Under the pieces are notes generated by a model. It saw only the letters and a program-made list of their open reading frames with translations. It did no database searches and had not been told where the DNA came from. Positions 14,309 to 54,733 of a DNA stretch of 64,000 bases are shown here, piece by piece. Made by a program: the position numbers and the translations under genes. This DNA comes from Escherichia coli (GTDB taxonomy: Bacteria; Pseudomonadota; Gammaproteobacteria; Enterobacterales; Enterobacteriaceae). The stretch is taken from assembly GCF_002854065.1 (NCBI RefSeq), contig NZ_CP024147.1. One strand, 5' to 3'. Within the stretch, counting starts at the first letter, position 1. The number at the start of each line of letters is the position of its first letter.

Positions 14309-19813
<5,505 letters not shown>

Positions 19814-20413: not shown

Positions 20414-20425
20414 CGGATAAATTTG

Positions 20426-20455
20426 AGCCCGGCGATAACACCGGGCTTTATTATT
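20426..20455 (+). terminator. his operon terminator (hairpin shared with convergent ugd)
   Basis: AGCCCGG-CGATAACA-CCGGGCT followed by TTTATTATT. Confidence 0.6.
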
Positions 20456-20469
20456 GCTGCACGAACCTG

Positions 20470-21839: not shown

Positions 21840-23246
21840 TTAATCCAGCCATTCGGTGTGGAACACACCTTCTTTATCAGTGCGTTTATAGGTATGCGCG
21901 CCGAAGTAGTCACGCTGAGCCTGAATCAGGTTCGCCGGCAGTACCGCAGCGCGGTAGCTATCGTAGTACGCCACTGCTGCAGAGAAGGTCGGTACCGGAA
22001 TACCGTTCTGCACAGCATAGGCCACCACGTCACGCAGCGCCTGCTGGTATTCATCAGCGATATTTTTGAAGTACGGTGCCAGCAGCAGGTTGGCGATACT
22101 CGCGTTTTCAGCGTAGGCGTCGGTGATTTTCTGCAGGAACTGTGCACGAATGATGCAGCCCGCGCGGAAGATCTTCGCGATTTCGCCGTAGTTCAGATCC
22201 CAGTTGTACTCGTCAGACGCGGCACGCAGCTGAGAGAAGCCCTGCGCGTAGGAGACGATTTTACCCAGGTACAGTGCGCGACGCACTTTCTCAACGAACT
22301 CTGCTTTATCGCCAGCCAGTTTAGCCTGCGGGCCAGTCAGCACTTTAGATGCCGCCACGCGCTGGTCTTTCAGGGAGGAGATGTAGCGCGCGAAAACAGA
22401 TTCAGTGATCAGCGACAGCGGTTCGCCCAGGTCCAGAGAGCTCTGGCTAGTCCATTTACCGGTGCCTTTGTTCGCCGCTTCGTCGAGGATCACATCAACC
22501 AGGTATTTACCGTCTTCATCTTTTTTGGTGAAGATGTCTTTGGTGATGTCGATCAGGTAGCTGCTCAGCTCGCCTTCATTCCACTCGGTGAAGGTGGTTG
22601 CCAGCTCTTCGTTAGACAGGTTCAGGCCGCCTTTCAGCAGAGAATAGGCTTCAGCAATCAGCTGCATGTCGCCGTATTCGATACCGTTGTGGACCATTTT
22701 CACGTAATGACCCGCACCGTCAGCACCGATGTAGGTTACGCAAGGCTCGCCGTCTTCAGCTACAGCAGCAATCTTGGTCAGGATAGGCGCAACCAACTCA
22801 TACGCTTCTTTCTGGCCGCCAGGCATGATAGATGGGCCCTTCAGCGCGCCCTCTTCGCCGCCGGATACGCCGGTACCGATGAAGTTAAAGCCTTCAGCAG
22901 ACAGCTCACGGTTACGACGAATGGTATCCTGGAAGAAGGTGTTACCACCATCAATGATGATGTCACCTTTATCAAGGTAAGGTTTCAGGGAATCGATGGC
23001 AGCATCGGTGCCCGCGCCTGCTTTCACCATTAACAGGATACGACGTGGGGTCTCAAGAGACTCGACGAACTCCTTGACCGTGTAGTGAGGAACCAGCTTT
23101 TTGCCTGGATTCTCAGCGACAACTTCTTCGGTTTTTTCACGGGAGCGGTTGAAGATAGAGACGGTATAACCACGGCTTTCGATGTTGAGCGCCAGGTTGC
23201 GCCCCATCACAGCCATACCGACTACGCCGATTTGTTGCTTAGACAT
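21840..23246 (-). CDS. gnd: 6-phosphogluconate dehydrogenase (decarboxylating)
   Basis: 468 aa [27 protein letters not shown]... Confidence 0.95.
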
Positions 23247-23417: not shown

Positions 23418-24563
23418 TTAGAGCACTTCTTGCATTGTGAGTTTATTATAGATTTGAACGGTTTTTCGTATGACAACGGTAGATGAATACTTTTCCTCTA
23501 CTCGCTTTCTGGCATTCTGCCCCATCTTAGTGCGCTCAAGAGGATCGCTAATAAGGATACCAAGCTTCTGAGAAAATAGGTTCACATTTCCTTTAGGCAC
23601 AAGGAAACCGTTATAACCGTCAAGTATTAAACTCCCACAACCACCAGTGTCAAAACTTATAACAGGACGACCGATTGCACCGGCTTCTAAAAGAATTCGA
23701 GGAATACCTTCAGAGTAAACAGATGGCAAAGCGACTATATCCACACTTTCAATTAATTCCTTGATATCGCTACGCTTGCCCAGCCAAATGATATCACCGG
23801 AGTTATGCCACTCTTCTATCTGAGTTATACTTATAGCGTCGCGATCATTGTCAACAAGAATGCCCGCAACTAATATCTCAAATTCGATGCCTTGTAATTT
23901 TAAAATTCTACTAGCATCAATTAACGTGCGTAGCCCTTTACTCCAAAGCATGCGACTTGCAAAAAAAACTTTAACCTTGGTATTATTAGGTGGTGTACTA
24001 TAACAAAAATAGTCTATATTAATACCTGCGCCATCAATAACTTCAGTTTTATTTTTTGGAATATCTAATAGTTCAATTATTTTTTGCTGATCTTTTTTAT
24101 GTTCAAAGAGGATACAACAATCAATATTTAAGAAAAATCTTCTATACATATTAGCAATTAAGAACTTAACCATTTGGTAAATGACCTTATTGCTTTCAAA
24201 AACTCTACCTAACCCAACAAAACTATAGACCATTTTTTTGTTTCGGATTCTGGCCCATAAACAACTAATCACACCAGGTTTAATCGTGACGCTATGCACA
24301 ATATCAGGATTAATTTTATTCAATGTTCTAAATGAGCGAGTTATATCGCAAAAGAAAACAACAGGATTGATATTTTGCTCTTTTATTTTACTATCAATAC
24401 ACTTAAATCCTAAACTAGTAAAGCGATCCAGAATAGACTTGTCAGAATAATTCGCAAAAATATAGACATCATATCCTGCTTCCAGAACTGATAAGGCACG
24501 ATCTAACCAATGTAATTCGAAATACCAAGCGGAGTTCACAAAATAACATATCTTTATTTTCAT
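23418..24563 (-). CDS. Glycosyltransferase, family 1 (GT4-like)
   Basis: 381 aa with C-terminal GT1 motifs (SEGIPRILLEAGAIGRPVIS); AT-rich. Confidence 0.75.
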   Translation of the reverse strand: MKIKICYFVNSAWYFELHWLDRALSVLEAGYDVYIFANYSDKSILDRFTSLGFKCIDSKIKEQNINPVVFFCDITRSFRTLNKINPDIVHSVTIKPGVISCLWARIRNKKMVYSFVGLGRVFESNKVIYQMVKFLIANMYRRFFLNIDCCILFEHKKDQQKIIELLDIPKNKTEVIDGAGINIDYFCYSTPPNNTKVKVFFASRMLWSKGLRTLIDASRILKLQGIEFEILVAGILVDNDRDAISITQIEEWHNSGDIIWLGKRSDIKELIESVDIVALPSVYSEGIPRILLEAGAIGRPVISFDTGGCGSLILDGYNGFLVPKGNVNLFSQKLGILISDPLERTKMGQNARKRVEEKYSSTVVIRKTVQIYNKLTMQEVL

Positions 24564-24718
24564 ATTTAAAACTCACATCTCCTTCCTTAAGCTATTATCC
24601 TGTTAAAATTTAAAACCTCAGCACGTCATCTTATACTTCGAAGAAAATATCAGTTTTAAATAAAGCAAAACAAATCATCCCTGATTTGTTTGTGAATCAA
24701 AATAAAGACTATTACAAA

Positions 24719-26878
24719 TCACCAACACACAAGCATGTATTCATACACCAGATCACGCTCAGGCTGGAGGTGAACAAACTTGAATTGATAACCCATATTG
24801 AGATTTTCAACAAATTTCTTACATTCAAAAATTTGCTCTGGCTGCAACCACAAGTGATAAACAGAAATCAGCAACACGGGCTTGTGTTTTTTGATTGTCT
24901 CGATTGCACCATTAAGGGCATTAATCTCATAGCCTTCAATATCGAATTTAATCAAACCAACACGATCTTCAAACGTCAGACTATCAATAGTGACCGATTG
25001 AACTTTAATGTCAGACTGCTCGTCTTCAACAACACATGAGCCTACTCCATCATCCCCAACTTTCATCATCGAAAGTTCGCCAGATACATTGCTGACAGCA
25101 ACATTTAAGGGTTTAATAGTATCATTTAAATATTGATGATTACGCTCAAGATTCCGAACCATACAGTTATAATTATCAGCTACAGGTTCTAAGGCAAGTA
25201 CTTCTTTAAATCCAAAGCTAGCGAACATGATAGCTGTATCACCAACCCAAGCCCCACAATCTATAGCAACAGAGCCTTTGAATTCTTCAGTGAATCGGCC
25301 TGGAAGATACTTCAAGCCAGCTTTGAAATAGTTGGTTGCTAGAGTAACCGGTAATTCAGATAGATCAAGATGCTGAATTAATTCTTTTTCGTGACGTAAG
25401 ATTGAATCAATATTTGACAATATAACTCTATCTTCATCCGTAAATAATGTTAAAGATAAAGGTAATTCCAACTCAATGCCTTGATGTTCAAAGTATGGCA
25501 GTAATTCATAAAAACCAAATAATTTCCTCTCATTTTGAAGGCTAAATTCATCAAGGCCGCGTTTGAATTCTTCACGTAGTTTAGAGATCCGAGAGGAATT
25601 TACCTTCATGTAATAATAAAACTGGTTAGTAGGCGCTACTTTTATTAGTACAGAACCATTTTTATTCTGTCCTGAAATGACATCGACTTTATCAGTAAGT
25701 TCTTTCGACATCTTCAAAAATGAAGAATCTAACTCCTCCCGAAAATGTTTGGAAAGTAAAGATGAGGAGGAATCCATTTTTGATGAAACAGCATTAATAA
25801 TTGGTTCAATTATTAATTTGTTAGTAATAAAACGTAGTTTGGAAACGACTTTCTTTTTAATCCTGTTTCTTGTCTGAACTGTTTTTATAATCCTGTTACT
25901 CATCAACTCATTATAAATTGGAAGAACATGATTATAATAATAGTCATTTGTATCGGAGGAAAATGAAACATTAGAAGTTACTGGCTGGAAACCTTCTTCT
26001 TTAGCCTGTTCAAAAACAGCAATAGCAGCTTCCTGATATGACTTCAATCCATCGCCTCTCAAACGAGAAGAATGGAAAACTAAATCAAAAAGATGGTGAA
26101 AATAAAAATGATTCAGGTATTTTTGAAACGTTCCAACACTAAGAAGGTGTTTTTTTATAATATCATAATTATTAAAAGATATTAATGCCTTGTCAGCACT
26201 AGCACTGGATGAGCCCACGTTCATGACCCTGTAGTTATAAACAGGCACATTCAAAAGAGTTATCTTTTCTACAGAGGCATAGGTGATGAATTTAAAGGGC
26301 ATATCCTGATATGAAGCCCCAGGACTTTCATAGAAGCGAATATGATTTTCTTCAAGAAAATCTCTTCTATACAAGCCAGTCCAGATTGATGATTCAAGCA
26401 AGAAAAGCTCAACTGAATTTTCTGGTACAATTTCTGCCAAGTTATCATTATCAAATGTACATAAATGCGCAAGGGACTGAGTATTGATTACAACTTCATT
26501 ACTTATTCTATTGAAACTTGCTTTAATGACCGGATTCGGGATTTTATTATAAGCGTCTATTAGACGCTCAAACATATCAAGCTGAACCCAATCGTCTGTT
26601 TCGATGATAGAAATAAAATCGCCGCTTGCAACATCTAGCCCAGAGTTGATTGCAGCTCCGTAACCTGCGTTTTTTTTATGGATAGCAATAATTCTTGTAT
26701 CGCTCGAAGCGTATCGATCAATAATCTGAGGGCAAGCATCAGGGCTACCGTCATTGACTATTATTATTTCCAGATTCTTATATGTTTGAGACAGAACACT
26801 GTCGAGACATTGCTCTAAATAAACTTCGCCGCCGTATACAGGTAAAATAACGGAAATTTTAAAGATATCATCACCCAT
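24719..26878 (-). CDS. Multidomain protein: N-terminal GT2 glycosyltransferase, central linker, C-terminal FkbM-family methyltransferase
   Basis: N-terminus ISVILPVYGGEVYLEQCLDSVLSQTY...ETDDW (GT2, DxD); C-terminus AIDCGAWVGDTAIMFASFG...FDIEGYE (FkbM-like SAM methyltransferase); ~180-aa region between them of unknown fold. Confidence 0.7.
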   Translation of the reverse strand: MGDDIFKISVILPVYGGEVYLEQCLDSVLSQTYKNLEIIIVNDGSPDACPQIIDRYASSDTRIIAIHKKNAGYGAAINSGLDVASGDFISIIETDDWVQLDMFERLIDAYNKIPNPVIKASFNRISNEVVINTQSLAHLCTFDNDNLAEIVPENSVELFLLESSIWTGLYRRDFLEENHIRFYESPGASYQDMPFKFITYASVEKITLLNVPVYNYRVMNVGSSSASADKALISFNNYDIIKKHLLSVGTFQKYLNHFYFHHLFDLVFHSSRLRGDGLKSYQEAAIAVFEQAKEEGFQPVTSNVSFSSDTNDYYYNHVLPIYNELMSNRIIKTVQTRNRIKKKVVSKLRFITNKLIIEPIINAVSSKMDSSSSLLSKHFREELDSSFLKMSKELTDKVDVISGQNKNGSVLIKVAPTNQFYYYMKVNSSRISKLREEFKRGLDEFSLQNERKLFGFYELLPYFEHQGIELELPLSLTLFTDEDRVILSNIDSILRHEKELIQHLDLSELPVTLATNYFKAGLKYLPGRFTEEFKGSVAIDCGAWVGDTAIMFASFGFKEVLALEPVADNYNCMVRNLERNHQYLNDTIKPLNVAVSNVSGELSMMKVGDDGVGSCVVEDEQSDIKVQSVTIDSLTFEDRVGLIKFDIEGYEINALNGAIETIKKHKPVLLISVYHLWLQPEQIFECKKFVENLNMGYQFKFVHLQPERDLVYEYMLVCW

Positions 26879-28199
26879 TGTCTTTCAAAACCTTTCGCAA
26901 AGTGGATTGGAAATTATAGCGCTGATTAAAGTTGGCAAAGACATTTCGACTATGAGTAGCCATGTTAATGAGCTCATCTTTTTTAAGCGATGTAATGAAC
27001 TCAGCACACTTTTGCGCAGATTCGATCTGATGGTACGCTTCTGTCGACTCAATCCCTTCCATAGCAGCTTTAGTTGAAACTAATGGAACACCATAAGAAA
27101 GCGCCTCCAGACATTTAACTTTCAACCCTGAAAGTAATTCATCTGGATTGATAATTACATCGCAGGAATGGTAGAACTTATCAAGGCTCTCACAAAAACC
27201 GAGGATATTAACAAAACCAGGGTACTGTCTACCTTCAAGAGCTCCGCAAATTGTTCCTGAAATATCGAGTCTTACATTATGATCAAGTTTACTTAAGCTA
27301 TCGATAAAATTGTTGATCGCAACGACATTTGGATAGTGCCCAGAGGCCATAAAGCCAACAACGATCTTTTTATTGGATGTTGGGACATAATCAATAAAGT
27401 TTACGTCCAGAATAGGTGGCTGAACAATGACTTGGGAACTAACATTCTCCCTGAAGTAACGGCCTTCTGCTTCTTGAATAGCAAATATATAATTAGCTCT
27501 TGATAACCCAATGGTTTCTTCTTTCTTCGATGTAGAGAAATAGAATTTATCTTGTGAAATACCAATTTTTGCCATTCGAGTGTTCCTCTTAGCAAAAACA
27601 TCGTGAGTATCGATCACTGAGACTGTATTAGGTTTAAGGTATAAACACAATTTTGACAGGAAGACATAATTAACAATTGCAATCTGATAATTATTCATCG
27701 CAGAAAGTGCAGCAACAAATTGACATATTTCATCATCAAGCCAATCGTCAATTTTATTTCCATCAGGAATTATTTGCTGATTGACATCGTGTCTTAGAGT
27801 GCCGAACTTTCCGTTCCGACATTTTATATTATAAGTATAATCCCAATCAACACTATTTGAATCCCAAGGTGAATTATTGAAAACAATAGCGTGAATTGTG
27901 AATCCTAGGGATTTTAATGTCGCAATTTTTGTATCAATATTTTTCCCGACGGCATCATTTCCATAAAAAGGCATAATGACTAGCGCATTTTTATCTGAAC
28001 TTGACTTTAAAATTTTTGGAAAAACAGTAAATTCATTTGCATTTTGTTCAGCATTAACGTTCAACGCTTTAATTAATAACCGCCTTGGGTAATGAGCGTT
28101 AACCATGAGGGCAAATAATTTCCAAAGCTTACGTGCGAGCCTGGTATACCTGAATTTAACAAAAGCTTTCTTCAAAAATCTGGTGATTGTGTTTTTCAT
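26871..28199 (-). CDS. Glycosyltransferase, family 1, with N-terminal domain of unknown function
   Basis: 442 aa; C-terminal GT1 motif (KCLEALSYGVPLVSTK); N-terminal ~200 aa unassigned. Confidence 0.7.
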   Translation of the reverse strand: MKNTITRFLKKAFVKFRYTRLARKLWKLFALMVNAHYPRRLLIKALNVNAEQNANEFTVFPKILKSSSDKNALVIMPFYGNDAVGKNIDTKIATLKSLGFTIHAIVFNNSPWDSNSVDWDYTYNIKCRNGKFGTLRHDVNQQIIPDGNKIDDWLDDEICQFVAALSAMNNYQIAIVNYVFLSKLCLYLKPNTVSVIDTHDVFAKRNTRMAKIGISQDKFYFSTSKKEETIGLSRANYIFAIQEAEGRYFRENVSSQVIVQPPILDVNFIDYVPTSNKKIVVGFMASGHYPNVVAINNFIDSLSKLDHNVRLDISGTICGALEGRQYPGFVNILGFCESLDKFYHSCDVIINPDELLSGLKVKCLEALSYGVPLVSTKAAMEGIESTEAYHQIESAQKCAEFITSLKKDELINMATHSRNVFANFNQRYNFQSTLRKVLKDNG

Positions 28200-28726
28200 A
28201 ATGGAATAGATAACAGATCAGAATAAACTGGATATGTGGCATAACCTACAGCAGGAATCTGATGGCCCGTCTCAACTAAAAAAACTCGGCCCAACCCAAA
28301 CTTTAATCCGGCTTCTACATCACCCAGTTTATCACCAACAATAAAAGATTGTTTTAAGTCAATGGAATAATCACGAGCTGCAGACTCGAACATACCCGTA
28401 TTAGGTTTGCGGCACGAACAATCACATCGATATTCAGGGACAATTCCATCTGGATGATGAGGGCAATAATAGATATCTAATATATCGATACCCTGTGATT
28501 TCAAGATACCCCTATACCACTTTGTCAATTTATCATAATCAGATAAGGTGTAATATCCTTTGGCAATTCCGGCCTGATTTGTCACAATGATTATTTTATA
28601 ACCATGAGCAATAAATCTTTTCATGCCACTGATACAGTTTTTGGTAAATTCAAAATCTTCAATTTTATATAGATAATTGACTTCCTTATTAATTACACCA
28701 TCGCGATCAAGAAATGCCACTTTCAT
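28196..28726 (-). CDS. gmhB: D-glycero-D-manno-heptose 1,7-bisphosphate phosphatase (HAD family)
   Basis: 176 aa, FLDRDGVIN HAD motif I; within heptose gene block. Confidence 0.8.
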   Translation of the reverse strand: MKVAFLDRDGVINKEVNYLYKIEDFEFTKNCISGMKRFIAHGYKIIIVTNQAGIAKGYYTLSDYDKLTKWYRGILKSQGIDILDIYYCPHHPDGIVPEYRCDCSCRKPNTGMFESAARDYSIDLKQSFIVGDKLGDVEAGLKFGLGRVFLVETGHQIPAVGYATYPVYSDLLSIPL

Positions 28727-29400
28727 TTAAATCTCTCACATGCAATGAAATAATCTTCAGGAATTCCTATATCGATAAAATATGAGGAATTAACGTAGGC
28801 CTTAAACTCTCCTTTGAATTTAGGCAAAAAATCAGATTCAAAAGAAAATTTATTCCCAGCAAACTTGCTCATAATTTCCTTTGAGACAATATAAATTCCA
28901 CTGTTAATAATTCCAGGGCCAGTTCTTCCCTTTTCTACCATAGCATTAACATTAGATTTCTCATCTAAATCTAAACTACCATAACGAGCGACATCATTAA
29001 CTTCGACACCAGATATTAGAAGATCTGTTCCCTTCGAAGCTTCTATGAAGTCACTATAATTAAGCTCGCAGTACGTATCACCATTAAGAACAATGAATTT
29101 ATCCGTTCTGACTTTAGAACTGGCATATTTAATTGCGCCACCAGTTCCTAGAGGTTCTTTTTCGACAACAAAGTCAACCTCACAACCAACAGGGTTGTCA
29201 TGGACAACCCTGTCGATGATATAGTCAGCTTTGTAGGATAATGATAGTATAATTCTGGTAGCTCCTTGTTTTTCAAGATACGTCATTAGACGATAAAGAA
29301 ATGGTTGCCCTGAAATATCTACCATTGGCTTAGGAAGCTCGCCACTAACACTCTTCAGACGAGTACCTAGCCCTCCTGCCAAAATAACTACATCATACAT
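28723..29400 (-). CDS. hddC: D-glycero-alpha-D-manno-heptose 1-phosphate guanylyltransferase
   Basis: 225 aa nucleotidyltransferase (VILAGGLGTRL); context with hddA/gmhA/gmhB. Confidence 0.7.
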   Translation of the reverse strand: MYDVVILAGGLGTRLKSVSGELPKPMVDISGQPFLYRLMTYLEKQGATRIILSLSYKADYIIDRVVHDNPVGCEVDFVVEKEPLGTGGAIKYASSKVRTDKFIVLNGDTYCELNYSDFIEASKGTDLLISGVEVNDVARYGSLDLDEKSNVNAMVEKGRTGPGIINSGIYIVSKEIMSKFAGNKFSFESDFLPKFKGEFKAYVNSSYFIDIGIPEDYFIACERFK

Positions 29401-29402
29401 AA

Positions 29403-29993
29403 TTATTTATCTTCTGGTTTGAAAATGGCACGTTCAACAATTGCGCAGATCATATGACCAATGCAAATATGGCATTCTTGAATGTATGGTGTAATTTTAG
29501 AAGGTACATTAATTGAATAGTCTACCAAATCTTTAAGCTTACCTGCTTCACCACATAGCGCCACGCTTGTCACACCCAGTTCTTTTGCCAGTTCCATCGC
29601 GTTAATGATATTAACGGAGTTACCTGAAGTACTGATGCCAATGAAAACATCACCTGGCTTGCTTTGAGCTTGCAGTTGTCTTGCAAATAGTTTATCAAAT
29701 CCGTAGTCATTGCCGATAGCCGTTAGCATCGAGGTATCAGTGGTGATAGCAATGGCTGGTAATCCTGGTCTATCGAAAAAGAAGCGACTGACGAACTCAG
29801 CCGCGATATGCTGAGAATCAGCAGCACTACCACCATTCCCGGCAAGAATTACTTTATTCCCGTTTTTATATGCATTGATAATCAAATCTGCAACTAAAGA
29901 GATTTGGCTCAATACACTGTCAGATTCCTGAAGCAATTTTTTTACTGCAATGCTGTCATCAAGATATGCTTTAATATAATTTACATTGTCCAT
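29403..29993 (-). CDS. gmhA: Sedoheptulose 7-phosphate isomerase (SIS domain)
   Basis: 196 aa; GNGGSAADSQH motif. Confidence 0.8.
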   Translation of the reverse strand: MDNVNYIKAYLDDSIAVKKLLQESDSVLSQISLVADLIINAYKNGNKVILAGNGGSAADSQHIAAEFVSRFFFDRPGLPAIAITTDTSMLTAIGNDYGFDKLFARQLQAQSKPGDVFIGISTSGNSVNIINAMELAKELGVTSVALCGEAGKLKDLVDYSINVPSKITPYIQECHICIGHMICAIVERAIFKPEDK

Positions 29994-31009
29994 GAATATG
30001 CTCCATCCTCGACAAATTGGAATTTATAGACTTCGCCACCAAACTCTTGTAGTTTACGTTCGATCAACTGTTTTCGCTCCGGTTCAACGAATAGCATCAT
30101 AAAACCACCGCCACCGGCACCTGAAACTTTCATTGACTTAACACCGATACTAAACACTTCCTTCTCGATTTTCTCAATCATCGGATTACTGATTGACGAT
30201 GAGGTGTTTTTCTTACTTTCCCATGCATCCAGGAATGTCGCGGCCATAGCATCGATATCAGATTTGAGTAAGTGTTCTTTAATCTGATATGCTGATTCTT
30301 TAACTTTATGCATAGCCATCAGTTTAGACTCTTTGTCACTCTCTAAAGATCTAATCTGGTCATCAATAATTTTCGCAGAGTCTCTCGAAGCCCCTGTAAA
30401 ATAAAGAATCAGGGATGACTCTAACTCATTTATTATATATCTACGAATTCTAAGTGGGTTAACAATAACGCGATTACCTTCATAAAACTCCATGAAATTA
30501 AAACCACCAAATGTTGCAGCATACTGATCTTGTTTACCACCTGATAAACCACAGTCTACTCGCTCAATCTTGAATGCTAACTGGGCCAGATCATATTCTC
30601 CAAGAGGCAGAGAATACATTTGCCGTAGTCCTTCAAGCATTGAAACAACAACCGTCGATGATGACCCCAAACCGCTACCTGCAGGAGCGTCAGAATGAGT
30701 AATGATACGAACCGGTTTTAATTCGCCGTCAAAATAATCATTCATGACTCGAAGGTAAACTGCTCGATGCAGTTTTAGCTTCCCTTCAATCGTTACACCA
30801 TTGGTAAGATCAATCTCTTCTCTGATATTAAGGTCGGTTGCCTCAAAAATAACTTTACTACCTTCAAGCTCATCATCAATGTAAGCATACGCATACATAT
30901 TGATGGTCGCATTCAGTACACACCCACCGAATGTATCGCTATAAGGTGAAACATCTGTCCCACCTCCTGCAATGCCTAAACGTAGAGGCGCTTTGCTTCT
31001 AACTTTCAT
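29981..31009 (-). CDS. hddA: D-glycero-alpha-D-manno-heptose 7-phosphate kinase (GHMP kinase)
   Basis: 342 aa GHMP kinase (PAGSGLGSSS); context. Confidence 0.7.
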   Translation of the reverse strand: MKVRSKAPLRLGIAGGGTDVSPYSDTFGGCVLNATINMYAYAYIDDELEGSKVIFEATDLNIREEIDLTNGVTIEGKLKLHRAVYLRVMNDYFDGELKPVRIITHSDAPAGSGLGSSSTVVVSMLEGLRQMYSLPLGEYDLAQLAFKIERVDCGLSGGKQDQYAATFGGFNFMEFYEGNRVIVNPLRIRRYIINELESSLILYFTGASRDSAKIIDDQIRSLESDKESKLMAMHKVKESAYQIKEHLLKSDIDAMAATFLDAWESKKNTSSSISNPMIEKIEKEVFSIGVKSMKVSGAGGGGFMMLFVEPERKQLIERKLQEFGGEVYKFQFVEDGAYSWTM

Positions 31010-31025
31010 AACAAAAGAATCCCTA

Positions 31026-32054
31026 TTAACGATTCAGAGGAATGCGGCCAGATGCGATTTCTTTTCTCCAGTGCTGGAGTAAATCACGAAACATATCTGT
31101 CGCTTTTATTTCTGGTTTCCAGTCAATGAAATTCCTGATTTTAGTATTATCAAACATTTGGTAATCGGCATCAATTGGACGCAGGCGATCTGTATCTGTA
31201 ACAACTTCAATATCGTCACGAGTGCTAAAGCTCAGTAAAAGGTCTATAACCTCAGGAAGTTTGAATGCTTCTTCACCTGCAATATTAAATGCTTCGCCGA
31301 AAGGAACATTCCCTTTTTCGCTCTCCAGAGCTAATAAATAGTATGCACGCACAGCGTCTCTAGCATCTTGGAAAGTACGTACGCTTGCTAAATTGCCAAC
31401 TTTTAATTTTGGTTCCTGATGTCCAGCTTCGATCAAGGCAATCTGCTTGGCAACAGTACTTTCGAAAAATACATCACTACGGCGTGGGCCTGTATGTGTG
31501 CCCATGCGAGTGATAAATGTACGCAACCCATATGCCTCGCCATAAAAACGCCCTAAATAATCGGTACCAATTTTACTAATGCTGTAAGGGCTAGCGCCAT
31601 GGAACTGCGTATCTTCGTTTAAAGCTTCACCTACTTTTGCTCTACCATAAACTTCACTAGAAGAACAAACATGAACAACAGGATCATAACCATCTTGTTG
31701 TTTTAGTTTTTTAATGCATTCCAACAGATTGGCAGTACCAATAATATTGGTCTGCAAGGTCTCGATCGGAATATCGAATGAGGTGCGGGGAAATGACTGC
31801 GCAGCAAGGTGGAAAATGAATTTTGGACGCTTCGCTTCAATTAAGTTATACATGGAAGTATAGTCATTAAGGTCTGCGTATTGGATGAATACTCTATCCT
31901 TTTTATTAATCCGGTCTGTTAAATGATAGATATTATCCATTGGCTCTTGCCAACGCATCATTCCAATTACTGTGTCGGTTGTATTCTCTAAAATATAATC
32001 TGCTAATTGAGAACCAACTTGTCCAGTGAATCCTGTAATTAATACATTATTCAT
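31026..32054 (-). CDS. dmhA: GDP-sugar 4,6-dehydratase (Gmd family); predicted GDP-D-glycero-D-manno-heptose 4,6-dehydratase
   Basis: 342 aa SDR-extended dehydratase adjacent to GDP-heptose genes; not in the colanic acid gmd/fcl block. Confidence 0.6.
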   Translation of the reverse strand: MNNVLITGFTGQVGSQLADYILENTTDTVIGMMRWQEPMDNIYHLTDRINKKDRVFIQYADLNDYTSMYNLIEAKRPKFIFHLAAQSFPRTSFDIPIETLQTNIIGTANLLECIKKLKQQDGYDPVVHVCSSSEVYGRAKVGEALNEDTQFHGASPYSISKIGTDYLGRFYGEAYGLRTFITRMGTHTGPRRSDVFFESTVAKQIALIEAGHQEPKLKVGNLASVRTFQDARDAVRAYYLLALESEKGNVPFGEAFNIAGEEAFKLPEVIDLLLSFSTRDDIEVVTDTDRLRPIDADYQMFDNTKIRNFIDWKPEIKATDMFRDLLQHWRKEIASGRIPLNR

Positions 32055-32060
32055 ATATGC

Positions 32061-32894
32061 TTACCCCTTAATAACGTTTAAATATGATTCACATGATCTA
32101 TCAAGAATAGATTCGAGAAAACGACTTTTGGTATTAATTTTTTTTGGCCTACCCAGCCAAAATGATTCTGGCGCATCTGTAAATTGATACTGCAGTTCTG
32201 GAAATTTTTCCTGCGCTAGCGCCAAAACAATCTGTTGTCGACTGACAAGATCCGGGCCGGAGAAATTAACGATGCGAGTATCAATTTGGCTCCAATTCAA
32301 TATAATATTTTTGATGCCTAACAATACATCATTAATTGAAACAACACTGCGCTCAAAACCATCAAATACATCTAATAATTTACTATTCAAACTGTGCTCT
32401 TTTACCATTTCAGAGAATTTATCACCTTTCCCTAAAATGTACGAAAATCGTATTACGAAGAACCCAGGGTTATTTGAAAAATGTTCTTCAACTTCACATT
32501 TCATTTGACCATATTTGCCAAATGGTTTTCGTTCTGACATTTCAGTGCACACATCAGATGTACCACCAAATACAACATCACTTGATGAGAAAATCACTCG
32601 CGCATTTTTTTTAAGTAATTCAGATATCAAAGTAATTGTATTTTTCACATTAATCTTATGCGCAACGTCATAGTTTTTCTCACATTGATCAGGCGCAGAG
32701 ACTGCTGAAAGAAAAATGATGGTGTCATCATTGTTTACTTGATCCAGTAAATCATTAAATTCACCAGTTTCCAGATCAAAATGAATATCTGAATTTTTTC
32801 TTCCAACTGTTACCAGCGAAAAAGCATCACTAAGAAATGATTTAAGATGATTACCAACGTAACCAGTAGACCCTAGAATGAATACTTTTCTCAT
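32061..32894 (-). CDS. dmhB: NAD(P)-dependent sugar-nucleotide reductase (RmlD-like); predicted GDP-4-keto-6-deoxyheptose reductase
   Basis: 277 aa SDR with GSTGYVG Rossmann motif; adjacent to dmhA. Confidence 0.55.
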   Translation of the reverse strand: MRKVFILGSTGYVGNHLKSFLSDAFSLVTVGRKNSDIHFDLETGEFNDLLDQVNNDDTIIFLSAVSAPDQCEKNYDVAHKINVKNTITLISELLKKNARVIFSSSDVVFGGTSDVCTEMSERKPFGKYGQMKCEVEEHFSNNPGFFVIRFSYILGKGDKFSEMVKEHSLNSKLLDVFDGFERSVVSINDVLLGIKNIILNWSQIDTRIVNFSGPDLVSRQQIVLALAQEKFPELQYQFTDAPESFWLGRPKKINTKSRFLESILDRSCESYLNVIKG

Positions 32895-32967
32895 ACTCAG
32901 TTACCAAATTATACGAAGTGAAGATGTATGCACATAAAATGCTATGAAGACAATTTTATCTGCCATT

Positions 32968-33942
32968 TTAATAACCGACGGATAGCTCAAATACACCGTC
33001 ATGATCTTTGGTATCTTTAAATTTAATTTTATAAATTTTATTATGATTAAGGCGAAGCCAGAAACTGTTGTCTTTAATGGATACTCTTTCCCAATCACTT
33101 GTTGTGGTTTTAAAACTGACGGAGACCACATCAACATCAATATTAAAATTAACATCTGAATATTCAGCTGTTGGATTTATATCTCCAACCTTAAAAGCTA
33201 CTGTTTCAGTATTTTTGTATTCCAGGAGCTTAAGCCCATAACTTGTCAGTTTCATAATCAAATTATATTTATTGTATACACTGTCACTTGGACCTTCATC
33301 CAGAACAACACCGTTTTCAATGCAAACAAGTCGATCGGAAAGGAGCTTCAACTGGTGTTCGTCATGCGAAACGATGACGACTGTTGTGTCTGACTTTATT
33401 TTTTCACGAATGCTTTTTTGTGCTTTCTCTGCAAAAGTCACGTCACCGACACCCAGTACTTCATCAATTAACAGAACTTCAGGGGTAGTATACATGGCAA
33501 TTGAGAAACCCAAACGTGCTAGCATACCTGATGAATAATTTTTAATTGGTTTTTCGAAGAACTCATTAAGCTCTGAATATACTTTGATGTCTTCAATAAT
33601 TGATTTGATATAAGACAATCTATGACCGAGGACCATTCCACTAAAGATAGTATTCTGACGACCTGATAAGTTGGGATCAAATCCTGCCTGAAGGGCCATT
33701 AGAGAAATACTGTTTGAATGAATAGTTATTTGCCCAGAATCAGGCTTAATAATACCCGCCAGAACTCGTAGTAATGTAGATTTCCCTGCTCCATTACGCC
33801 CAATTATTCCAAGAGTTTCGCCACGATAAACATCGAATGTAATGTTTGTCAAAGCTTCATATTCATCGTAAGTAAAGAGTGTTTTCTTTTCTCTATAAAC
33901 TAAACCTACGTTTTTTAGCTCAATAATCTTTTCATTCTTCAT
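32968..33942 (-). CDS. wzt: O-antigen ABC transporter ATP-binding protein with C-terminal extension
   Basis: Walker A GRNGAGKST, ABC signature SSGM, Walker B LLIDE; ~85 aa beyond the NBD. Confidence 0.85.
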   Translation of the reverse strand: MKNEKIIELKNVGLVYREKKTLFTYDEYEALTNITFDVYRGETLGIIGRNGAGKSTLLRVLAGIIKPDSGQITIHSNSISLMALQAGFDPNLSGRQNTIFSGMVLGHRLSYIKSIIEDIKVYSELNEFFEKPIKNYSSGMLARLGFSIAMYTTPEVLLIDEVLGVGDVTFAEKAQKSIREKIKSDTTVVIVSHDEHQLKLLSDRLVCIENGVVLDEGPSDSVYNKYNLIMKLTSYGLKLLEYKNTETVAFKVGDINPTAEYSDVNFNIDVDVVSVSFKTTTSDWERVSIKDNSFWLRLNHNKIYKIKFKDTKDHDGVFELSVGY

Positions 33943-34712
33943 TTCTGAACAACTCGTGGGAAGATGAATTCTAATCTCTTAAATGCATACAACGAAATAG
34001 AAATCATAATTAAAGAAAGCAGAACTACATATGCGAGCAGCTTAATATTTGGTGCATTATGATACATCAATACATCACGGTACGAACTAAGAATTACTGC
34101 CATCGGGTTAATGAAGAAAATCTTCGATTCCATCGCCGGTATACTTTTGTAATTGAAAAATATACCTGAGCAAAACATCATAATTTGAAGGCCGGTTTCA
34201 ATTACAAATGAAAAATCTCTGACAAAGGGAACAATGATTGACACTATCAAAGAAAATGCAACTATTAATAATAGCTGAACAAAAATGACTGGAATAATCC
34301 AAAGCAAGCCAAGAGTATAATCATAGCCGTACAAGACTAAAAAAATAAATAGCAGAATAAATACAAGTATCTGCTTTAACGCATCCTGCAATATAAATGT
34401 CAAAGGGAAGAATATCTTAGAAATATGTACCTGATTCATTAGGTACTTTCCTTGAATGATACTCCCTTGCGCATGACTAACGCTGCGACCAAACCATATC
34501 CAGGGGATCAGTCCAGTTAACAGGAATGGGACGTAATCATGACCACCTTGCTTAAGAAGATATGCAAAAACCAAATAGTAAATTGCCATTTGAAGGACTG
34601 GTTCGATAATCCACCAAGCATAACTTAAATAGTTTATTGATGCTTCTGATTTTAGATTAAGCTTTGCTTTAACCCAAACCAATTCAAGGGTTTTTAACGA
34701 CATGATACTCAT
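33939..34712 (-). CDS. wzm: O-antigen ABC transporter permease
   Basis: 257-aa ABC-2 type membrane protein; coupled to wzt. Confidence 0.85.
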   Translation of the reverse strand: MSIMSLKTLELVWVKAKLNLKSEASINYLSYAWWIIEPVLQMAIYYLVFAYLLKQGGHDYVPFLLTGLIPWIWFGRSVSHAQGSIIQGKYLMNQVHISKIFFPLTFILQDALKQILVFILLFIFLVLYGYDYTLGLLWIIPVIFVQLLLIVAFSLIVSIIVPFVRDFSFVIETGLQIMMFCSGIFFNYKSIPAMESKIFFINPMAVILSSYRDVLMYHNAPNIKLLAYVVLLSLIMISISLYAFKRLEFIFPRVVQK

Positions 34713-34713
34713 G

Positions 34714-37650
<2,937 letters not shown>

Positions 37651-37654
<4 letters not shown>

Positions 37655-38520
37655 TCACCTTTTGCACGTGCTATAATGTATTGACCATAATCATTTTTCT
37701 TCATAGGTAGTGCATTTTTTATTGCTTCTTCTTTGCTTAACCAACCATTTCTTAATGCAATCTCTTCAAGACATGCAACCTTGAGGCCCTGAACATTCTG
37801 GATGGTTTGCACGAAGGATGACGCTTCATGCAAACTTTCGTGGGTCCCTGTATCCAACCAAGCAAAACCACGCCCCAGTAGCTCTACGTTAAGAGTACCT
37901 TCTTTGAGATACATGTCATTAAGATCAGTAATCTCCAGCTCCCCTCTCACTGAAGGTTTAACTTTTTTAGCGAAATCGATAACGCGATTATCATAGAAGT
38001 AAAGTCCAGTGACTGCATAATTTGATTTTGGTTTTGACGGTTTTTCTTCAATAGATACAGCCCGCATCTCGCTATCAAATTCAACTACACCGAAGCGTTC
38101 AGGGTCTTTCACTTGATAACCAAATACTGTTGCACCGTATTCTCTTGCAACAGCATTCTGCAGGATTTTGATAAATGATTGGCCATAAAAAATATTATCA
38201 CCCAGCACCAAACAAACTTTATCGTTTCCTATAAATTTCTCACCAATGAGGAATGCCTGCGCTAATCCATCAGGGCTGGGTTGCACGGCATAATTAAGCC
38301 GAATACCAAAATTACTGCCATCACCGAGTAACCGCTGGAAACTCGCATTATCTTCTTCAGTGGTTATTATTAATATATCTTGAATACCCGCTAGCATAAG
38401 TGTGGAAAGCGGGTAATAAATCATTGGTTTATCATAGATTGGTAATAGTTGTTTTGATACACCACGAGTTATTGGATACAATCTAGTGCCAGAGCCGCCT
38501 GCTAAAATAATACCTTTCAT
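37651..38520 (-). CDS. rmlA: Glucose-1-phosphate thymidylyltransferase
   Basis: 289 aa [18 protein letters not shown]... Confidence 0.95.
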
Positions 38521-38532
38521 CTTTTATCCTTA

Positions 38533-39621
38533 CTACTCTACGAGCCCTAAGCGTTCACCAGCGTACGAACCATCCATCACACGCTGCCACCATTCTTTAT
38601 TATTTAAATACCAGTGAATGGTTTTAGTGATACCCGTTTCAAACGTTTCTTGCGGCACCCAACCTAAATCTTGTTTAATTTTACTGGCGTCAATGGCATA
38701 TCTAAGGTCATGCCCTGGACGATCGCTAACATACCGAATCAACTGTTCAAAATTTTCAATGCCATCTGGTTTATCTGCAATCAATTCATCGAGAATGCGA
38801 CAAATAGTTTTCACTACATCGATATTTTTACGTTCGTTATGACCACCAATATTATATGTTTCTCCCGGCACACCCTTTGTGACGACTTCATAAAGTGCCC
38901 GGGCATGATCTTCAACATATAACCAATCTCGAATTTGCTCACCGTTCCCATAAACAGGTAAAAGTTTACCCGCAATTGCATTCAGAATAATTAACGGAAT
39001 GAGTTTTTCAGGGAAATGGTACGGCCCATAATTATTAGAACAATTTGTCACTATGGTGGGTAATCCATATGTACGCCGCCATGCACGAACTAAGTGATCA
39101 CTGGATGCCTTAGAGGCGGAATATGGACTGCTAGGGGAATATGAAGTTTGTTCTGTAAACAATGGCAATATTGTATCTGACGATACTTCATCCGGATGAG
39201 GAAGGTCACCATAAACCTCATCCGTAGAAATATGGTGGAAGCGAAATGCACCTTTGCGATCTTCACTAAGTGCTAGCCAATACTTACGAGCTTCTTCTAG
39301 TAAGATATATGTTCCAACAATATTGGTTTCAATAAAGTCTGCAGGGCCTGTGATTGAACGATCAACGTGGCTTTCGGCTGCCAAATGCATTATTGCATCT
39401 GGTTGGTGATGTGCAAAAATATTGGCTATTGCAACGCTGTCGCAAATATCCGCATGCTCAAATTTATACCGCTCGTTATTCTCAATCTCTGTCAGAGATT
39501 CCAAATTACCTGCATAGGTAAGTTTATCAACATTGATGACAGAGTCTTGCGTATTATTAATTATATGACGAACAACTGCAGACCCAATAAAACCTGCACC
39601 ACCTGTAACCAGTATTTTCAC
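38533..39621 (-). CDS. rmlB: dTDP-glucose 4,6-dehydratase
   Basis: 362 aa [21 protein letters not shown]... Confidence 0.95.
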
Positions 39622-39715
39622 TTTGAATTTCCGCTATGACTTATAACTTATGGCTTGATAATATGAATGTTTGTTAAGAACAATCTGAATATTAAAAAAG
39701 ACACTTATGATTAGA

Positions 39716-39754
39716 CACGCTACCGCCCCTGGCTCTCCAGCTACCAGCGCACTG
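39716..39754 (-). promoter_or_regulatory. JUMPstart element with ops site (GGCGGTAGCGT at 39717-39727), RfaH-dependent antitermination
   Basis: Minus-strand sequence CAGTGCGCTGGTAGCTGGAGAGCCAGGGGCGGTAGCGTG matches the 39-bp JUMPstart consensus; ~95 bp upstream of rmlB. Confidence 0.75.
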
Positions 39755-40044
39755 CACCTTCAATGATAAAAATCATTTATGTCAAGGTAAAAATCCGCAA
39801 CGACTCCCACCTGCAAACCCAAAAAATTTCGGCAACTATTTTCGTCTTAAATGCATTTGAACTCAAGGAAAAATCTTATAAACGATATGCAACGCCTACA
39901 TTTCTAACCTATTGTTATTTTTTACTTTGTTTTATGAAATAAAAAGGCAGTGAAGCTAGTAGTAGGTTACCCTACATACTTATGCCCATCTGCCGTTCTA
40001 AAACGCCGTTCTTAAATTTGCTTTATCGTTTACTGAGAAACGAC

Positions 40045-40935
40045 TTAAGATAACAACTTTTCAATACTTTTCCTGATCTTAGCCCCTTCCTTCAGGTTGC
40101 GCAACCCATACTGCACAAACGCCTGCATATACCCCATCTTCTTCCCGCAGTCGTAGCTCTCACCCGTCATCAGCATCGCGTCAACAGACTGCTTATTCGC
40201 CAGTTCGGCGATCGCATCCGTCAGTTGAATTCGGCCCCACGCCCCCGGCACGGTCTTCGCCAGTTCAGGCCAGATATCAGCGGAAAGTACATAGCGGCCT
40301 ACGGCCATCAGATCGGATTCCAGCGTCTGCGGCTGGTCAGGTTTTTCGATAAAATCAACGATACGGCTAACTTTACCTTCGACATCCAGCGGCTCTTTCG
40401 TTTTGATGACGGAGTATTCAGACAGGTCGCCCGGCATACGTTTCGCCAGCACCTGGCTACGCCCGGTTTCGTTGAAACGCGCCACCATGGCGGCAAGGTT
40501 GTAGCGCAGCGGGTCGGCGCTTGCGTTGTCCAGCACGATATCCGGCAACACAACCACAAACGGGTTATCGCCGACAATCGGATGTGCGCACAGGATAGAG
40601 TGTCCCAGGCCCAACGGCTGCGCCTGGCGAACGTTCATGATGGTCACGCCAGGAGGACAGATAGATTGAACTTCAGCCAGCAGCTGACGCTTCACGCGCT
40701 GCTCAAGCAGTGCTTCCAGTTCATACGAGGTATCGAAGTGGTTTTCCACCGAGTTTTTCGATGCGTGTGTGACCAGAACGATTTCTTTGATCCCTGCAGC
40801 AACCACTTCGTCGACGATGTACTGAATCATCGGCTTGTCAACGATCGGCAGCATCTCTTTAGGGATGGCCTTCGTGGCAGGTAGCATGTTCATACCCAAT
40901 CCCGCTACCGGAATGACTGCTTTCAAATTAACCAT
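40045..40935 (-). CDS. galF: UTP-glucose-1-phosphate uridylyltransferase subunit GalF
   Basis: Start chosen at [14 protein letters not shown] (AGGTGG RBS), matching E. coli GalF; the ORF-track GTG at 40947 is rejected. Confidence 0.9.
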
Positions 40936-41069
40936 TATCTTGTCCACCTATATATCGGTTGATGAATTATAGCGATTAAACATGTTTAATCCACTCTGTT
41001 TTGTCATAGTACTGATTTGAGTCAGGATGATCCCTGGATGTAATCCGATAATTCAGTGGATTGCCGTGC

Positions 41070-42467: not shown

Positions 42468-42476
42468 AGCGCCTCC

Positions 42477-44977: not shown

Positions 44978-45008
44978 CATGGCCTCATCAAAAAGGGGTT
45001 CAAGCAAA

Positions 45009-53611: not shown

Positions 53612-54733
53612 TTAAGACTCCAGCGCGATCGCCACTTCATAACCGTGGGATTTCAGCAGGGAATGTTTCTTCGCTGCTTCCAGGTCTTTGGCGACCATTT
53701 CAGATACCATCTCCTGCAGGGTGGTTTCCGGTTTCCAGCCGAGTTTTTCATGCGCTTTGGTCGGGTCGCCGAGCAGGGTTTCAACTTCTGCCGGACGGAA
53801 GTAGCGCGGATCCACGGCCACCATCACATCGCCCGGTTTCACGCCCGGCGCATCGTGACCGGTGACGGAAACGACAATCCCTTTTTCTTCCACGCCTTTA
53901 CCTTCAAAGCGCAGTTTAATACCCAGCTGTGCCGCCGCCATTTCGACGAACTGGCGAACCGAATACTGCACGCCGGTGGCGATAACGAAATCTTCCGGAT
54001 GGTCCTGTTGCAGCATCATCCACTGCATTTTCACGTAGTCTTTGGCGTGGCCCCAGTCGCGCAGAGAATCCATGTTGCCGAGGTACAGGCACTTCTCCAG
54101 GCCCTGAGCGATGTTAGCGATCGCACGGGTGATTTTACGCGTCACAAAGGTTTCGCCGCGGCGCGGAGACTCGTGGTTGAACAGGATGCCGTTACAGGCG
54201 TACATGTCGTAAGATTCACGGTAGTTGACGGTGATCCAGTAGGCATACAGTTTGGCGACCGCATACGGCGAGCGCGGATAGAACGGAGTGGTCTCTTTTT
54301 GTGGAATTTCCTGCACCAGGCCGTACAGTTCCGAAGTGGAAGCCTGATAGAAACGCGTTTTCTTCTCCAGCCCTAGGAAGCGGATGGCTTCCAGCAGACG
54401 CAGCGTGCCCATCGCATCCACGTCGGCGGTATATTCCGGCGACTCAAACGACACGGCAACGTGGCTCATTGCGCCGAGGTTATACACTTCATCCGGCTGC
54501 ACTTCCTGCAGAATGCGCGTCAGGTTGGAGCTGTCGGTCAAATCACCGTAGTGCAGGTGAAATTTCGGGTTGCTGCTGTGCGGATCCTGATAGATGTGAT
54601 CGACACGTTCGGTGTTAAAGGAAGAAGCACGGCGTTTAATCCCGTGAACTTCATAGCCTTTTTCCAGCAGCAGTTCTGCCAGATAAGAACCGTCCTGCCC
54701 CGTTACGCCGGTAATAAGTGCGACTTTTGACAT
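53612..54733 (-). CDS. gmd: GDP-mannose 4,6-dehydratase
   Basis: 373 aa [31 protein letters not shown]... Confidence 0.95.

What the first reader, a model, noticed from the sequence alone, without database searches (positions are those of the whole stretch)
31026..32894. Dedicated Gmd-like dehydratase + reductase pair next to GDP-heptose genes (predicted DmhA/DmhB)
The window holds two distinct Gmd-family dehydratases: the colanic-acid gmd (53612-54733, GC-rich) and this AT-rich copy beside hddA/gmhA/hddC/gmhB with an RmlD-like reductase. This arrangement fits GDP-D-glycero-D-manno-heptose 4,6-dehydration and 4-reduction to a 6-deoxyheptose. The alternative is a second GDP-mannose-derived 6-deoxyhexose such as GDP-D-rhamnose.
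Basis: inference. Interest (0 to 1): 0.45.

Follow-up and report, generated by a model that had tools for sequence, protein, structure and literature searches.

The report
E. coli O52 dmhA/dmhB deoxyheptose genes

Summary
Two minus-strand ORFs sit exactly at 31026-32054 (342 aa) and 32061-32894 (277 aa), directly upstream of hddA-gmhA-hddC-gmhB. The window is the E. coli O52 O-antigen locus. Identical proteins are already named DmhA and DmhB in UniRef. A 2019 review states that 6-deoxy-D-manno-heptose occurs in O52 and that dmhAB, hddAC and gmhAB make its GDP derivative.

The dehydratase is 92% identical to Yersinia pseudotuberculosis DmhA. [quoted passage not shown] It is only 27% identical to the colanic-acid Gmd in the same window, and it fails the NCBIfam Gmd cut-off (153 against 415 bits). 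The reductase is 64% identical over its full length to Y. pseudotuberculosis DmhB. All six genes are collinear with the Yersinia module.

Novelty: already known, although the E. coli enzymes themselves have not been assayed.

Two side observations are more interesting. The O52 locus lies in a roughly 67-kb block about 80% identical to other E. coli and 97-98% identical to Kluyvera. Two Kluyvera-type loci carry the same cluster with a clean 1.5-kb dmhB-dmhA deletion.

The parts
31026..32054 (-). [quoted passage not shown]
   Evidence: ORF. 100% identical to UniRef 'DmhA' P0042. 7US5 at 605 bits and about 80% identity, against Gmd 1DB3 at 103 bits. 91.5% identical to Y. pseudotuberculosis DmhA. 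TIGR01472 gmd 153.5 bits, below the 415 cut-off. Motifs: G8xxG11xxG14, S131-S132-S133-E134, Y157xxxK161.
32061..32894 (-). dmhB: GDP-6-deoxy-4-keto-D-lyxo-heptose C4 reductase (277 aa, RmlD-type SDR)
   Evidence: ORF. 100% identical to UniRef DmhB Q6E7E7_ECOLX (P0028). 63.8% identical over 276 of 277 aa to Y. pseudotuberculosis DmhB. Pfam PF04321 and PF01370 precomputed for the identical P0001. rmlD TIGR01214 only 64 bits, below the 224 cut-off, covering residues 3-178. AlphaFold model pLDDT 94; fold matches RmlD and MAT2B at TM about 0.8. Invariant G8/G11/G14, S104-S105-D106, Y128xxxK132.
29981..31009 (-). hddA: D-glycero-D-manno-heptose 7-phosphate kinase
   Evidence: NCBIfam NF049969 HddA 384.5 bits, the best-scoring family but below the 600 equivalog cut-off. 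85.7% identical to the Y. pseudotuberculosis counterpart.
29403..29993 (-). gmhA: sedoheptulose 7-phosphate isomerase
   Evidence: TIGR00441 191 bits. 85% identical to the Y. pseudotuberculosis counterpart.
28723..29400 (-). hddC: D-glycero-D-manno-heptose 1-phosphate guanylyltransferase
   Evidence: NF049965 HddC 188 bits, the best-scoring family. 71.6% identical to the Y. pseudotuberculosis counterpart.
28196..28726 (-). gmhB: heptose 1,7-bisphosphate 7-phosphatase
   Evidence: TIGR00213 169.8 bits, above the 149.6 cut-off. 62.5% identical to the Y. pseudotuberculosis counterpart.
32968..34712 (-). wzt (32968-33942) and wzm (33939-34712): ABC exporter of the O52 polymer, directly upstream of dmhB
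   Evidence: RefSeq annotation 'O52 family O-antigen export ABC transporter' on a 100% identical record.
34714..39621 (-). rmlB, rmlA, fcf1, fcf2 (glf-like) and a GT2 glycosyltransferase: the dTDP-D-fucofuranose branch and the first part of the same operon
   Evidence: Annotation. Gaps of -4 to 12 bp between the genes. The review cites the O52 dTDP-D-Fucf pathway.
39720..39727 (-). ops element GGCGGTAG (JUMPstart) in the galF-rmlB spacer, 99 nt upstream of rmlB
   Evidence: The position fits an RfaH-dependent operon leader. The count in the whole window (2 against 1.3 expected) is not significant by itself.
23418..28199 (-). three downstream transferase genes: GT (26871-28199), GT2 plus FkbM-type methyltransferase (24719-26878), GT4 (23418-24563). 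These are the presumed users of GDP-6d-manHep and the chain terminator.
   Evidence: Annotation. The review proposes the methyltransferase as chain terminator.
53612..54733 (-). gmd of the colanic acid cluster. It is the comparator paralogue and not part of the heptose pathway.
   Evidence: TIGR01472 594.5 bits. 27% identical to DmhA. Annotated gmd between fcl and wcaF.

Best explanation
The pair is dmhB-dmhA of the E. coli O52 O-antigen operon. [quoted passage not shown] DmhA is an extended SDR with tightly bound NAD+. It oxidises C4, eliminates water across C5/C6 and returns the hydride to C6, giving GDP-6-deoxy-4-keto-D-lyxo-heptose. [quoted passage not shown] The cluster's glycosyltransferases polymerise this sugar with D-fucofuranose, and Wzm/Wzt export the polymer.

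Shown here: gene identity, family placement, conserved catalytic motifs and conserved six-gene synteny. Taken from the literature: the sugar composition of O52 and the biochemistry of the orthologues. Inferred: that the E. coli enzymes have the same activities.
For: (1) Locus identity. The window matches four complete E. coli genomes at 100%, and their wzm/wzt are annotated 'O52 family'.

(2) Names. Identical proteins are named DmhA and DmhB in UniRef.

(3) Sugar and genes. PMC7685785 states that 6d-D-manHep occurs only in O52 and that dmhAB, hddAC and gmhAB make GDP-6d-D-manHep.

(4) Dehydratase family. [quoted passage not shown] Rmd scores 135 bits and E. coli Gmd 103 bits. The Gmd equivalog model scores 153.5 bits against a cut-off of 415, while the colanic Gmd scores 594.5.

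(5) Synteny. The Y. pseudotuberculosis module dmhB-dmhA-hddA-gmhA-hddC-gmhB has the same order, the same six protein lengths (277/342/342/196/225/176 aa) and nearly the same spacings. Identities are 64/92/86/85/72/63%. The Yersinia pair was characterised as a C4,C6 dehydratase and a C4 reductase acting on GDP-manno-heptose (Butty 2009, as summarised in PMC7949155, and PMC4691232).

(6) Catalytic residues. They are invariant in both families.

(7) Reductase fold. DmhB models confidently as a complete RmlD-type SDR.

(8) Natural deletion. It removes exactly dmhB and dmhA in two Kluyvera-type loci. In the cleanly assembled one (L011), every other cluster gene held in the locus is intact, so the two genes behave as one separable tailoring unit.
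Against: No enzyme assay exists for the E. coli proteins; the review says their function 'has not been confirmed biochemically'. DmhB is only 64% identical to the characterised orthologue, and no DmhB-type structure is solved (the nearest PDB folds are 17-23% identical). Its stereochemistry of reduction is therefore inferred from the reported sugar, not from sequence. I could not read Feng et al. 2004 or Butty et al. 2009 directly.
Confidence: 0.95

Rival explanations
1. The pair is a second Gmd/Rmd-type pathway that makes a GDP-mannose-derived 6-deoxyhexose such as GDP-D-rhamnose.
For: RefSeq PGAP labels the dehydratase 'GDP-mannose 4,6-dehydratase'. Pfam PF16363 GDP_Man_Dehyd hits it. Rmd structures are its second-best PDB matches (135 and 117 bits). 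GDP-mannose is available in the cell from cpsB/cpsG in the colanic acid cluster.
Against: The protein scores 153.5 bits against the 415-bit Gmd cut-off and is 27% identical to the real Gmd. It is 80-92% identical to two heptose-specific dehydratases. The reductase has no sequence match to Rmd structures at E <= 0.001. The O52 sugars cited are D-Fucf and 6d-D-manHep, with no D-Rha. The genes are embedded in a GDP-heptose module.
Confidence: 0.02
2. The enzymes are DmhA/DmhB-like but relaxed in specificity. Besides GDP-6d-manHep, they would also process some GDP-mannose and supply a minor 6-deoxyhexose, for example a methylated chain-terminating residue.
For: Inference only. The cluster has an FkbM-type methyltransferase proposed as chain terminator, although the O unit itself contains no methyl group. 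From my own recollection, not verified here: Feng 2004 reported a minor 6-deoxy-3-O-methylhexose, and Yersinia DmhA shows some activity on GDP-mannose.
Against: The dTDP-D-fucose branch in the same cluster can already supply a 6-deoxyhexose for capping.
Confidence: 0.03

Closest known systems
Yersinia pseudotuberculosis O:2a DmhA/DmhB (Pacinelli 2002; Butty et al. 2009, Biochemistry 48:7764)
   Same: Same six-gene module, order, protein lengths and overlaps. DmhA is 91.5% and DmhB 63.8% identical. Same product sugar, 6-deoxy-D-manno-heptose, in the O antigen.
   Different: The Yersinia cluster is Wzx/Wzy-type with a wzz gene next to it, whereas O52 uses a Wzm/Wzt ABC exporter. DmhB and GmhB are the most diverged members (about 63%). 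The E. coli enzymes have not been assayed.
[quoted passage not shown]
   Same: About 80% identical over the full length, with the same catalytic residues. Same reaction, GDP-heptose to GDP-6-deoxy-4-keto-D-lyxo-heptose (PMC10680097).
   Different: From my own knowledge of these enzymes, Campylobacter pairs the dehydratase with GDP-fucose-synthase-like C4 reductases. It often adds C3/C5 epimerases and so makes several stereoisomers. O52 and Yersinia use an RmlD-type reductase and no epimerase.
E. coli Gmd (colanic acid; PDB 1DB3; TIGR01472)
   Same: Same extended-SDR 4,6-dehydratase chemistry on a GDP-sugar. The S/T-x-E and YxxxK residues align.
   Different: Only 27% identical. DmhA lacks the roughly 30-residue insertions of Gmd, fails the equivalog cut-off, and uses a C7 rather than a C6 sugar substrate.
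RmlD, dTDP-6-deoxy-L-lyxo-4-hexulose reductase (PF04321; PDB 1KBZ, 1VL0)
   Same: Same fold (TM about 0.8). Same GxxGxxG, S/T and YxxxK residues. Both are C4 keto-reductases of a 6-deoxy-4-keto nucleotide sugar.
   Different: Only about 20% identical. The rmlD model scores 64 bits against a cut-off of 224 and covers only the N-terminal 178 residues. The nucleotide is GDP rather than dTDP, and the sugar is a D-heptose rather than an L-hexose.

Membership tests
[quoted passage not shown] | High full-length similarity to biochemically or structurally characterised members | tested here: met
   7US5: 605 bits over residues 3-342. Y. pseudotuberculosis DmhA: 91.5% over 342 aa.
[quoted passage not shown] | Extended-SDR cofactor and catalytic motifs (GxxGxxG; Ser/Thr-x-Glu; YxxxK) | tested here: met
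   G8/G11/G14, S131-S133, E134, Y157 and K161 are invariant in alignment A1.
[quoted passage not shown] | Encoded next to the GDP-heptose genes gmhA, hddA, gmhB and hddC | tested here: met
   The same arrangement is found in Yersinia and in the Kluyvera-type locus L009.
[quoted passage not shown] | Kinetic preference for GDP-heptose over GDP-mannose | not testable with these tools
   This needs an enzyme assay. The review notes that it has not been done for E. coli.
DmhB / GDP-6-deoxy-4-keto-D-lyxo-heptose 4-reductase | Full-length homology to characterised Y. pseudotuberculosis DmhB | tested here: met
   63.8% identity over 276 of 277 aa, E = 1e-132. The family is small: 22 clusters at E <= 1e-5.
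DmhB / GDP-6-deoxy-4-keto-D-lyxo-heptose 4-reductase | RmlD-type SDR fold with a Rossmann motif and the S...YxxxK triad | tested here: met
   Model pLDDT 94 and pTM 0.92. RmlD and MAT2B are the top folds. G8/G11/G14, S104/S105 and Y128/K132 are invariant.
DmhB / GDP-6-deoxy-4-keto-D-lyxo-heptose 4-reductase | Product has the manno configuration at C4 | not testable with these tools
   Inferred from the reported 6d-D-manHep in O52. NMR of the enzymatic product is needed.
Gmd (GDP-mannose 4,6-dehydratase, TIGR01472 equivalog) | Score above the curated equivalog cut-off (415 bits) | tested here: not met
   153.5 bits. The colanic Gmd in the same window scores 594.5.
Rmd (GDP-4-keto-6-deoxy-D-mannose reductase), as partner for a D-rhamnose pathway | Reductase homologous to Rmd (2PK3, 6X3B) | tested here: not met
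   phmmer of the 277-aa protein against the PDB lists RmlD and MAT2B but no Rmd at E <= 0.001. Rmd appears only as a generic SDR fold match at 17% identity.
RmlD (dTDP-4-dehydrorhamnose reductase, TIGR01214 equivalog) | Score above the curated cut-off (224 bits) | tested here: not met
   64.4 bits, residues 3-178 only. The protein works like an RmlD but is not one.

The most novel reading that the evidence does not exclude
The dmhB-dmhA pair is a dispensable tailoring cassette whose presence or absence creates two antigenic versions of one polymer. Kluyvera genomosp. 3 (CP022114.1) and a second sample (SRR33827193) carry the O52-type cluster with a precise 1528-bp dmhB'-'dmhA deletion. In SRR33827193 the other cluster genes covered by the locus (rmlB to gmhA) are intact. 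These strains would therefore build the same backbone with D-glycero-D-manno-heptose instead of the 6-deoxy sugar. In addition, E. coli O52 did not assemble this locus itself. It received it inside a roughly 67-kb Kluyvera chromosomal segment (sbcB to mdtA) that also replaced its his operon and colanic acid cluster and removed wzzB.
Probability: 0.4. Interest if true: 0.4.

Novelty: already known. Interest (0 to 1): 0.14.

Why it matters
For the finding itself, little changes. It re-derives from raw sequence an assignment made in 2004 and supported by later biochemistry on orthologues. One practical point follows: RefSeq still labels these genes 'GDP-mannose 4,6-dehydratase' and 'sugar nucleotide-binding protein', so automated annotation would mislead anyone predicting the O52 sugar. 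The side observations could matter more. A roughly 67-kb inter-genus replacement that carries an O-antigen locus, the his operon and the colanic acid cluster would be an unusually large, clean example of O-antigen acquisition by homologous recombination. The natural dmhBA deletion offers a ready-made test of whether the O52 glycosyltransferases accept the non-deoxygenated heptose.

Tried and rejected
- Papers: I tried to read Feng et al. 2004 (PMC438562), Xiang et al. 2022 (PMC9623766 and its DOI) and McCallum et al. 2012 (PMC3436146). None is held. The O52 structure and the orthologues' biochemistry are therefore cited second-hand from PMC7685785, PMC7949155, PMC10680097 and PMC4691232.
- Dehydratase review: the nucleotide-sugar dehydratase review PMC8987622 does not mention heptose dehydratases.
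- Supplements: the E. coli O-antigen review has no supplementary files held as text.
- Phylogeny: I did not build a formal tree of Gmd against DmhA/WcbK. The 120 homologues listed (of 7974 at E <= 1e-20) are all DmhA-type at 77% identity or more, and I had no set of external Gmd or Rmd sequences. I relied on curated HMM cut-offs and PDB bit scores, which separate the two families by about 450-500 bits.
- Promoter and terminator scan: the counts inside the cluster were no different from shuffled sequence, so I make no internal-promoter claim.
- Whole-genome divergence: I considered that the four 'E. coli' genomes might be a different species. I rejected this because the sequence beyond both junctions is 97-100% identical to K-12.
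- Kluyvera deletion as cluster decay: I considered that the deletion might be part of general decay of the cluster. The many frameshifts in CP022114.1 (L010) may be assembly errors. The independent assembly L011 has every other covered gene intact.

Full report
**Observation.** The two ORFs exist exactly where stated: 31026-32054 (342 aa) and 32061-32894 (277 aa), both on the minus strand and 6 bp apart. Four genes follow directly downstream on the same strand. Their best NCBIfam matches are HddA, GmhA, HddC and GmhB, and their spacings are 16, -13, 2 and -4 bp. A second dehydratase at 53612-54733 is a genuine Gmd (TIGR01472 594.5 bits, cut-off 415) inside the colanic acid cluster. The composition contrast is real: 0.40 and 0.34 G+C for the pair against 0.55 for gmd.

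**What the locus is.** Window 28000-35000 is 100% identical to four of 5426 complete E. coli genomes. In those genomes wzm and wzt are annotated 'O52 family'. The region between galF (40045-40947) and gnd (21840-23246) reads, on the minus strand: rmlB, rmlA, fcf1, fcf2 (glf-like), GT, wzm, wzt, the pair, hddA, gmhA, hddC, gmhB, GT, GT-methyltransferase, GT. An ops element (GGCGGTAG) lies 99 nt upstream of rmlB. Gene gaps are tiny throughout, which is consistent with a single operon; that reading is an inference.

**Identity of the pair.** The 342-aa protein is identical to a UniRef entry named DmhA (P0042, 295 contigs). The 277-aa protein is identical to DmhB Q6E7E7_ECOLX (P0028). The review PMC7685785 states that 6d-D-manHep occurs only in the O52 antigen. 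[quoted passage not shown] 2004.

**Dehydratase: heptose type, not Gmd.**
[quoted passage not shown] Next come Rmd (135 and 117 bits) and Gmd enzymes (about 97-115 bits; E. coli 1DB3 at 103).
- The curated Gmd equivalog model gives 153.5 bits against a cut-off of 415.
- Identity to the window's own Gmd is 27%.
- Alignment A1 shows invariant G8/G11/G14, S131-S133, E134 and Y157/K161, which align with the Gmd catalytic residues.
- The family is very conserved, at 77% identity or more from Enterobacteriaceae to Campylobacter, Helicobacter and Sulfurimonas.

**Reductase.**
- Only 22 database clusters match at E <= 1e-5. They include Y. pseudotuberculosis 'putative 6-deoxy-D-mannoheptose pathway protein' at 63% identity and Vibrio, Cedecea and Izhakiella proteins.
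- The protein is RmlD-like. It carries Pfam PF04321, and rmlD TIGR01214 scores 64 bits on residues 3-178, far below the cut-off. No Rmd structure matches by sequence.
- An AlphaFold model built from alignment A2 is confident (pLDDT 94). It superposes on RmlD, MAT2B and other extended SDRs at TM about 0.8 and 17-23% identity. No DmhB-type structure has been solved.
- G8/G11/G14, S104-S105-D106 and Y128xxxK132 are invariant.

**Synteny with the characterised system.** In Y. pseudotuberculosis (L002), dmhB-dmhA-hddA-gmhA-hddC-gmhB has the same order and the same six protein lengths. The spacings are nearly the same. Identities are 64, 92, 86, 85, 72 and 63%. [quoted passage not shown] 2009). PMC4691232 notes that the complete enzymatic synthesis from sedoheptulose 7-phosphate has been reported. 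PMC10680097 gives the dehydratase mechanism: NAD+-dependent C4 oxidation, C5/C6 water elimination, then hydride addition.

[quoted passage not shown] DmhA converts it to GDP-6-deoxy-4-keto-D-lyxo-heptose. [quoted passage not shown] Family placement, motifs and synteny were shown here. The sugar composition and the orthologue biochemistry come from the literature. The activities of the E. coli enzymes are inferred. This is already known, so interest is low.

**Side observation 1: a Kluyvera block.**
- From about 7200 to its end, the window is only 68-86% identical to K-12.
- The his operon segment is about 81% identical to 4679 E. coli genomes and at least 99% identical only to the four O52 genomes. 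The colanic acid genes behave the same way.
- The left junction lies inside sbcB at about 7000-7200. The right junction lies outside the window, inside mdtA of strain 100416. Beyond both junctions, identity to K-12 returns to 97-100%. The block is therefore about 67 kb.
- Its WcaM, WcaL and YeeZ-like proteins fall in 90%-identity clusters whose named members are Kluyvera species and E. coli, apart from one Klebsiella-labelled entry. Its PlaP is identical to that of Kluyvera genomosp. 3.
- CP022114.1 is 97.8% identical over window 32761-52485. Two other genomes are 98.4-98.6% identical over the his region.
- wzzB is absent, with 56 bp between hisIE and ugd, as in the Kluyvera-like loci.
- The held library has no paper that links Kluyvera and O52.

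**Side observation 2: a natural deletion of the pair.** CP022114.1 (L010) and an independent assembly (L011) have the O52-type cluster minus window 31233-32760. What remains is a 104-aa dmhB'-'dmhA fusion remnant. In L011 every other cluster gene that the locus covers, from rmlB to gmhA, is intact at 95-100% amino-acid identity. A metagenome contig (L009) has the complete cluster at 88% nucleotide identity. This fits the view of dmhBA as a separable tailoring unit.

Noticed in passing
window ~7200-64000 (continues beyond the window to mdtA in NZ_CM128593.1, about 1,825,900): The whole region (3' part of sbcB, tsuBA, plaP, the his operon, ugd, gnd, the O52 cluster, galF and the colanic acid cluster) is only about 68-86% identical to E. 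coli K-12 and about 80% identical to thousands of other E. coli. It is 97-98.6% identical to Kluyvera genomes, with G+C 0.54-0.64. This looks like a roughly 67-kb inter-genus replacement, with junctions inside sbcB and mdtA. No paper in the held library links Kluyvera and O52.
   Followed up: partly
window 31233-32760; L010 ~19683-19686 and L011 ~19692-19695: Kluyvera genomosp. 3 CP022114.1 and the Logan assembly SRR33827193 carry the O52-type cluster with a 1528-bp deletion. It removes most of dmhB and dmhA and leaves a decayed 104-aa fusion ORF. In L011 the other covered cluster genes are intact. The predicted polymer is a D-glycero-D-manno-heptose variant.
   Followed up: partly
window 20414-20469: There is no wzzB between hisIE and ugd, only 56 bp, whereas K-12 has wzzB there. 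The same junction occurs in the Kluyvera-like loci L013 and L014. This is consistent with an ABC-transporter O antigen that needs no Wzz.
   Followed up: partly
window 9507-10273; also 3931-4701 and 1-287: There are IS1 copies here. The one at 9507-10273 interrupts tsuA (yeeE) near its 5' end, with a target duplication of about 9-10 bp. It is absent from the otherwise 99.96% identical strain 100416.
   Followed up: partly
window ~288-6800: A lambdoid prophage end lies directly upstream of sbcB (integrase, Rad52-like, Ead/Ea22, ssb). It is 95-98% identical to prophages in many E. coli. None of the four complete O52 genomes covers 80% or more of it, so the window comes from a further O52 strain; the NCTC-style assembly UGEQ01000001.1 (L015) is similar.
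   Followed up: no
window 12219-13222 compared with K-12 L005 14483-17144: Between plaP and hisL the window has only a yeeZ-like SDR gene. K-12's yoeI, yeeY and the yefM-yoeB toxin-antitoxin pair are absent, as expected if the segment is Kluyvera-derived.
   Followed up: no
window 31026-32894 (RefSeq annotation of identical records): PGAP labels DmhA 'GDP-mannose 4,6-dehydratase' and DmhB 'sugar nucleotide-binding protein'. Many database homologues of DmhA carry the same Gmd label or 'GDP-4-dehydro-6-deoxy-D-mannose reductase'. This looks like systematic mis-naming of the heptose dehydratase family.
   Followed up: yes
L003 10837-11864 (Y. pseudotuberculosis AP031363.1): In this Yersinia genome dmhA is called as two fragments (104 and 216 aa). 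This is a possible frameshifted pseudogene or an assembly error.
   Followed up: no
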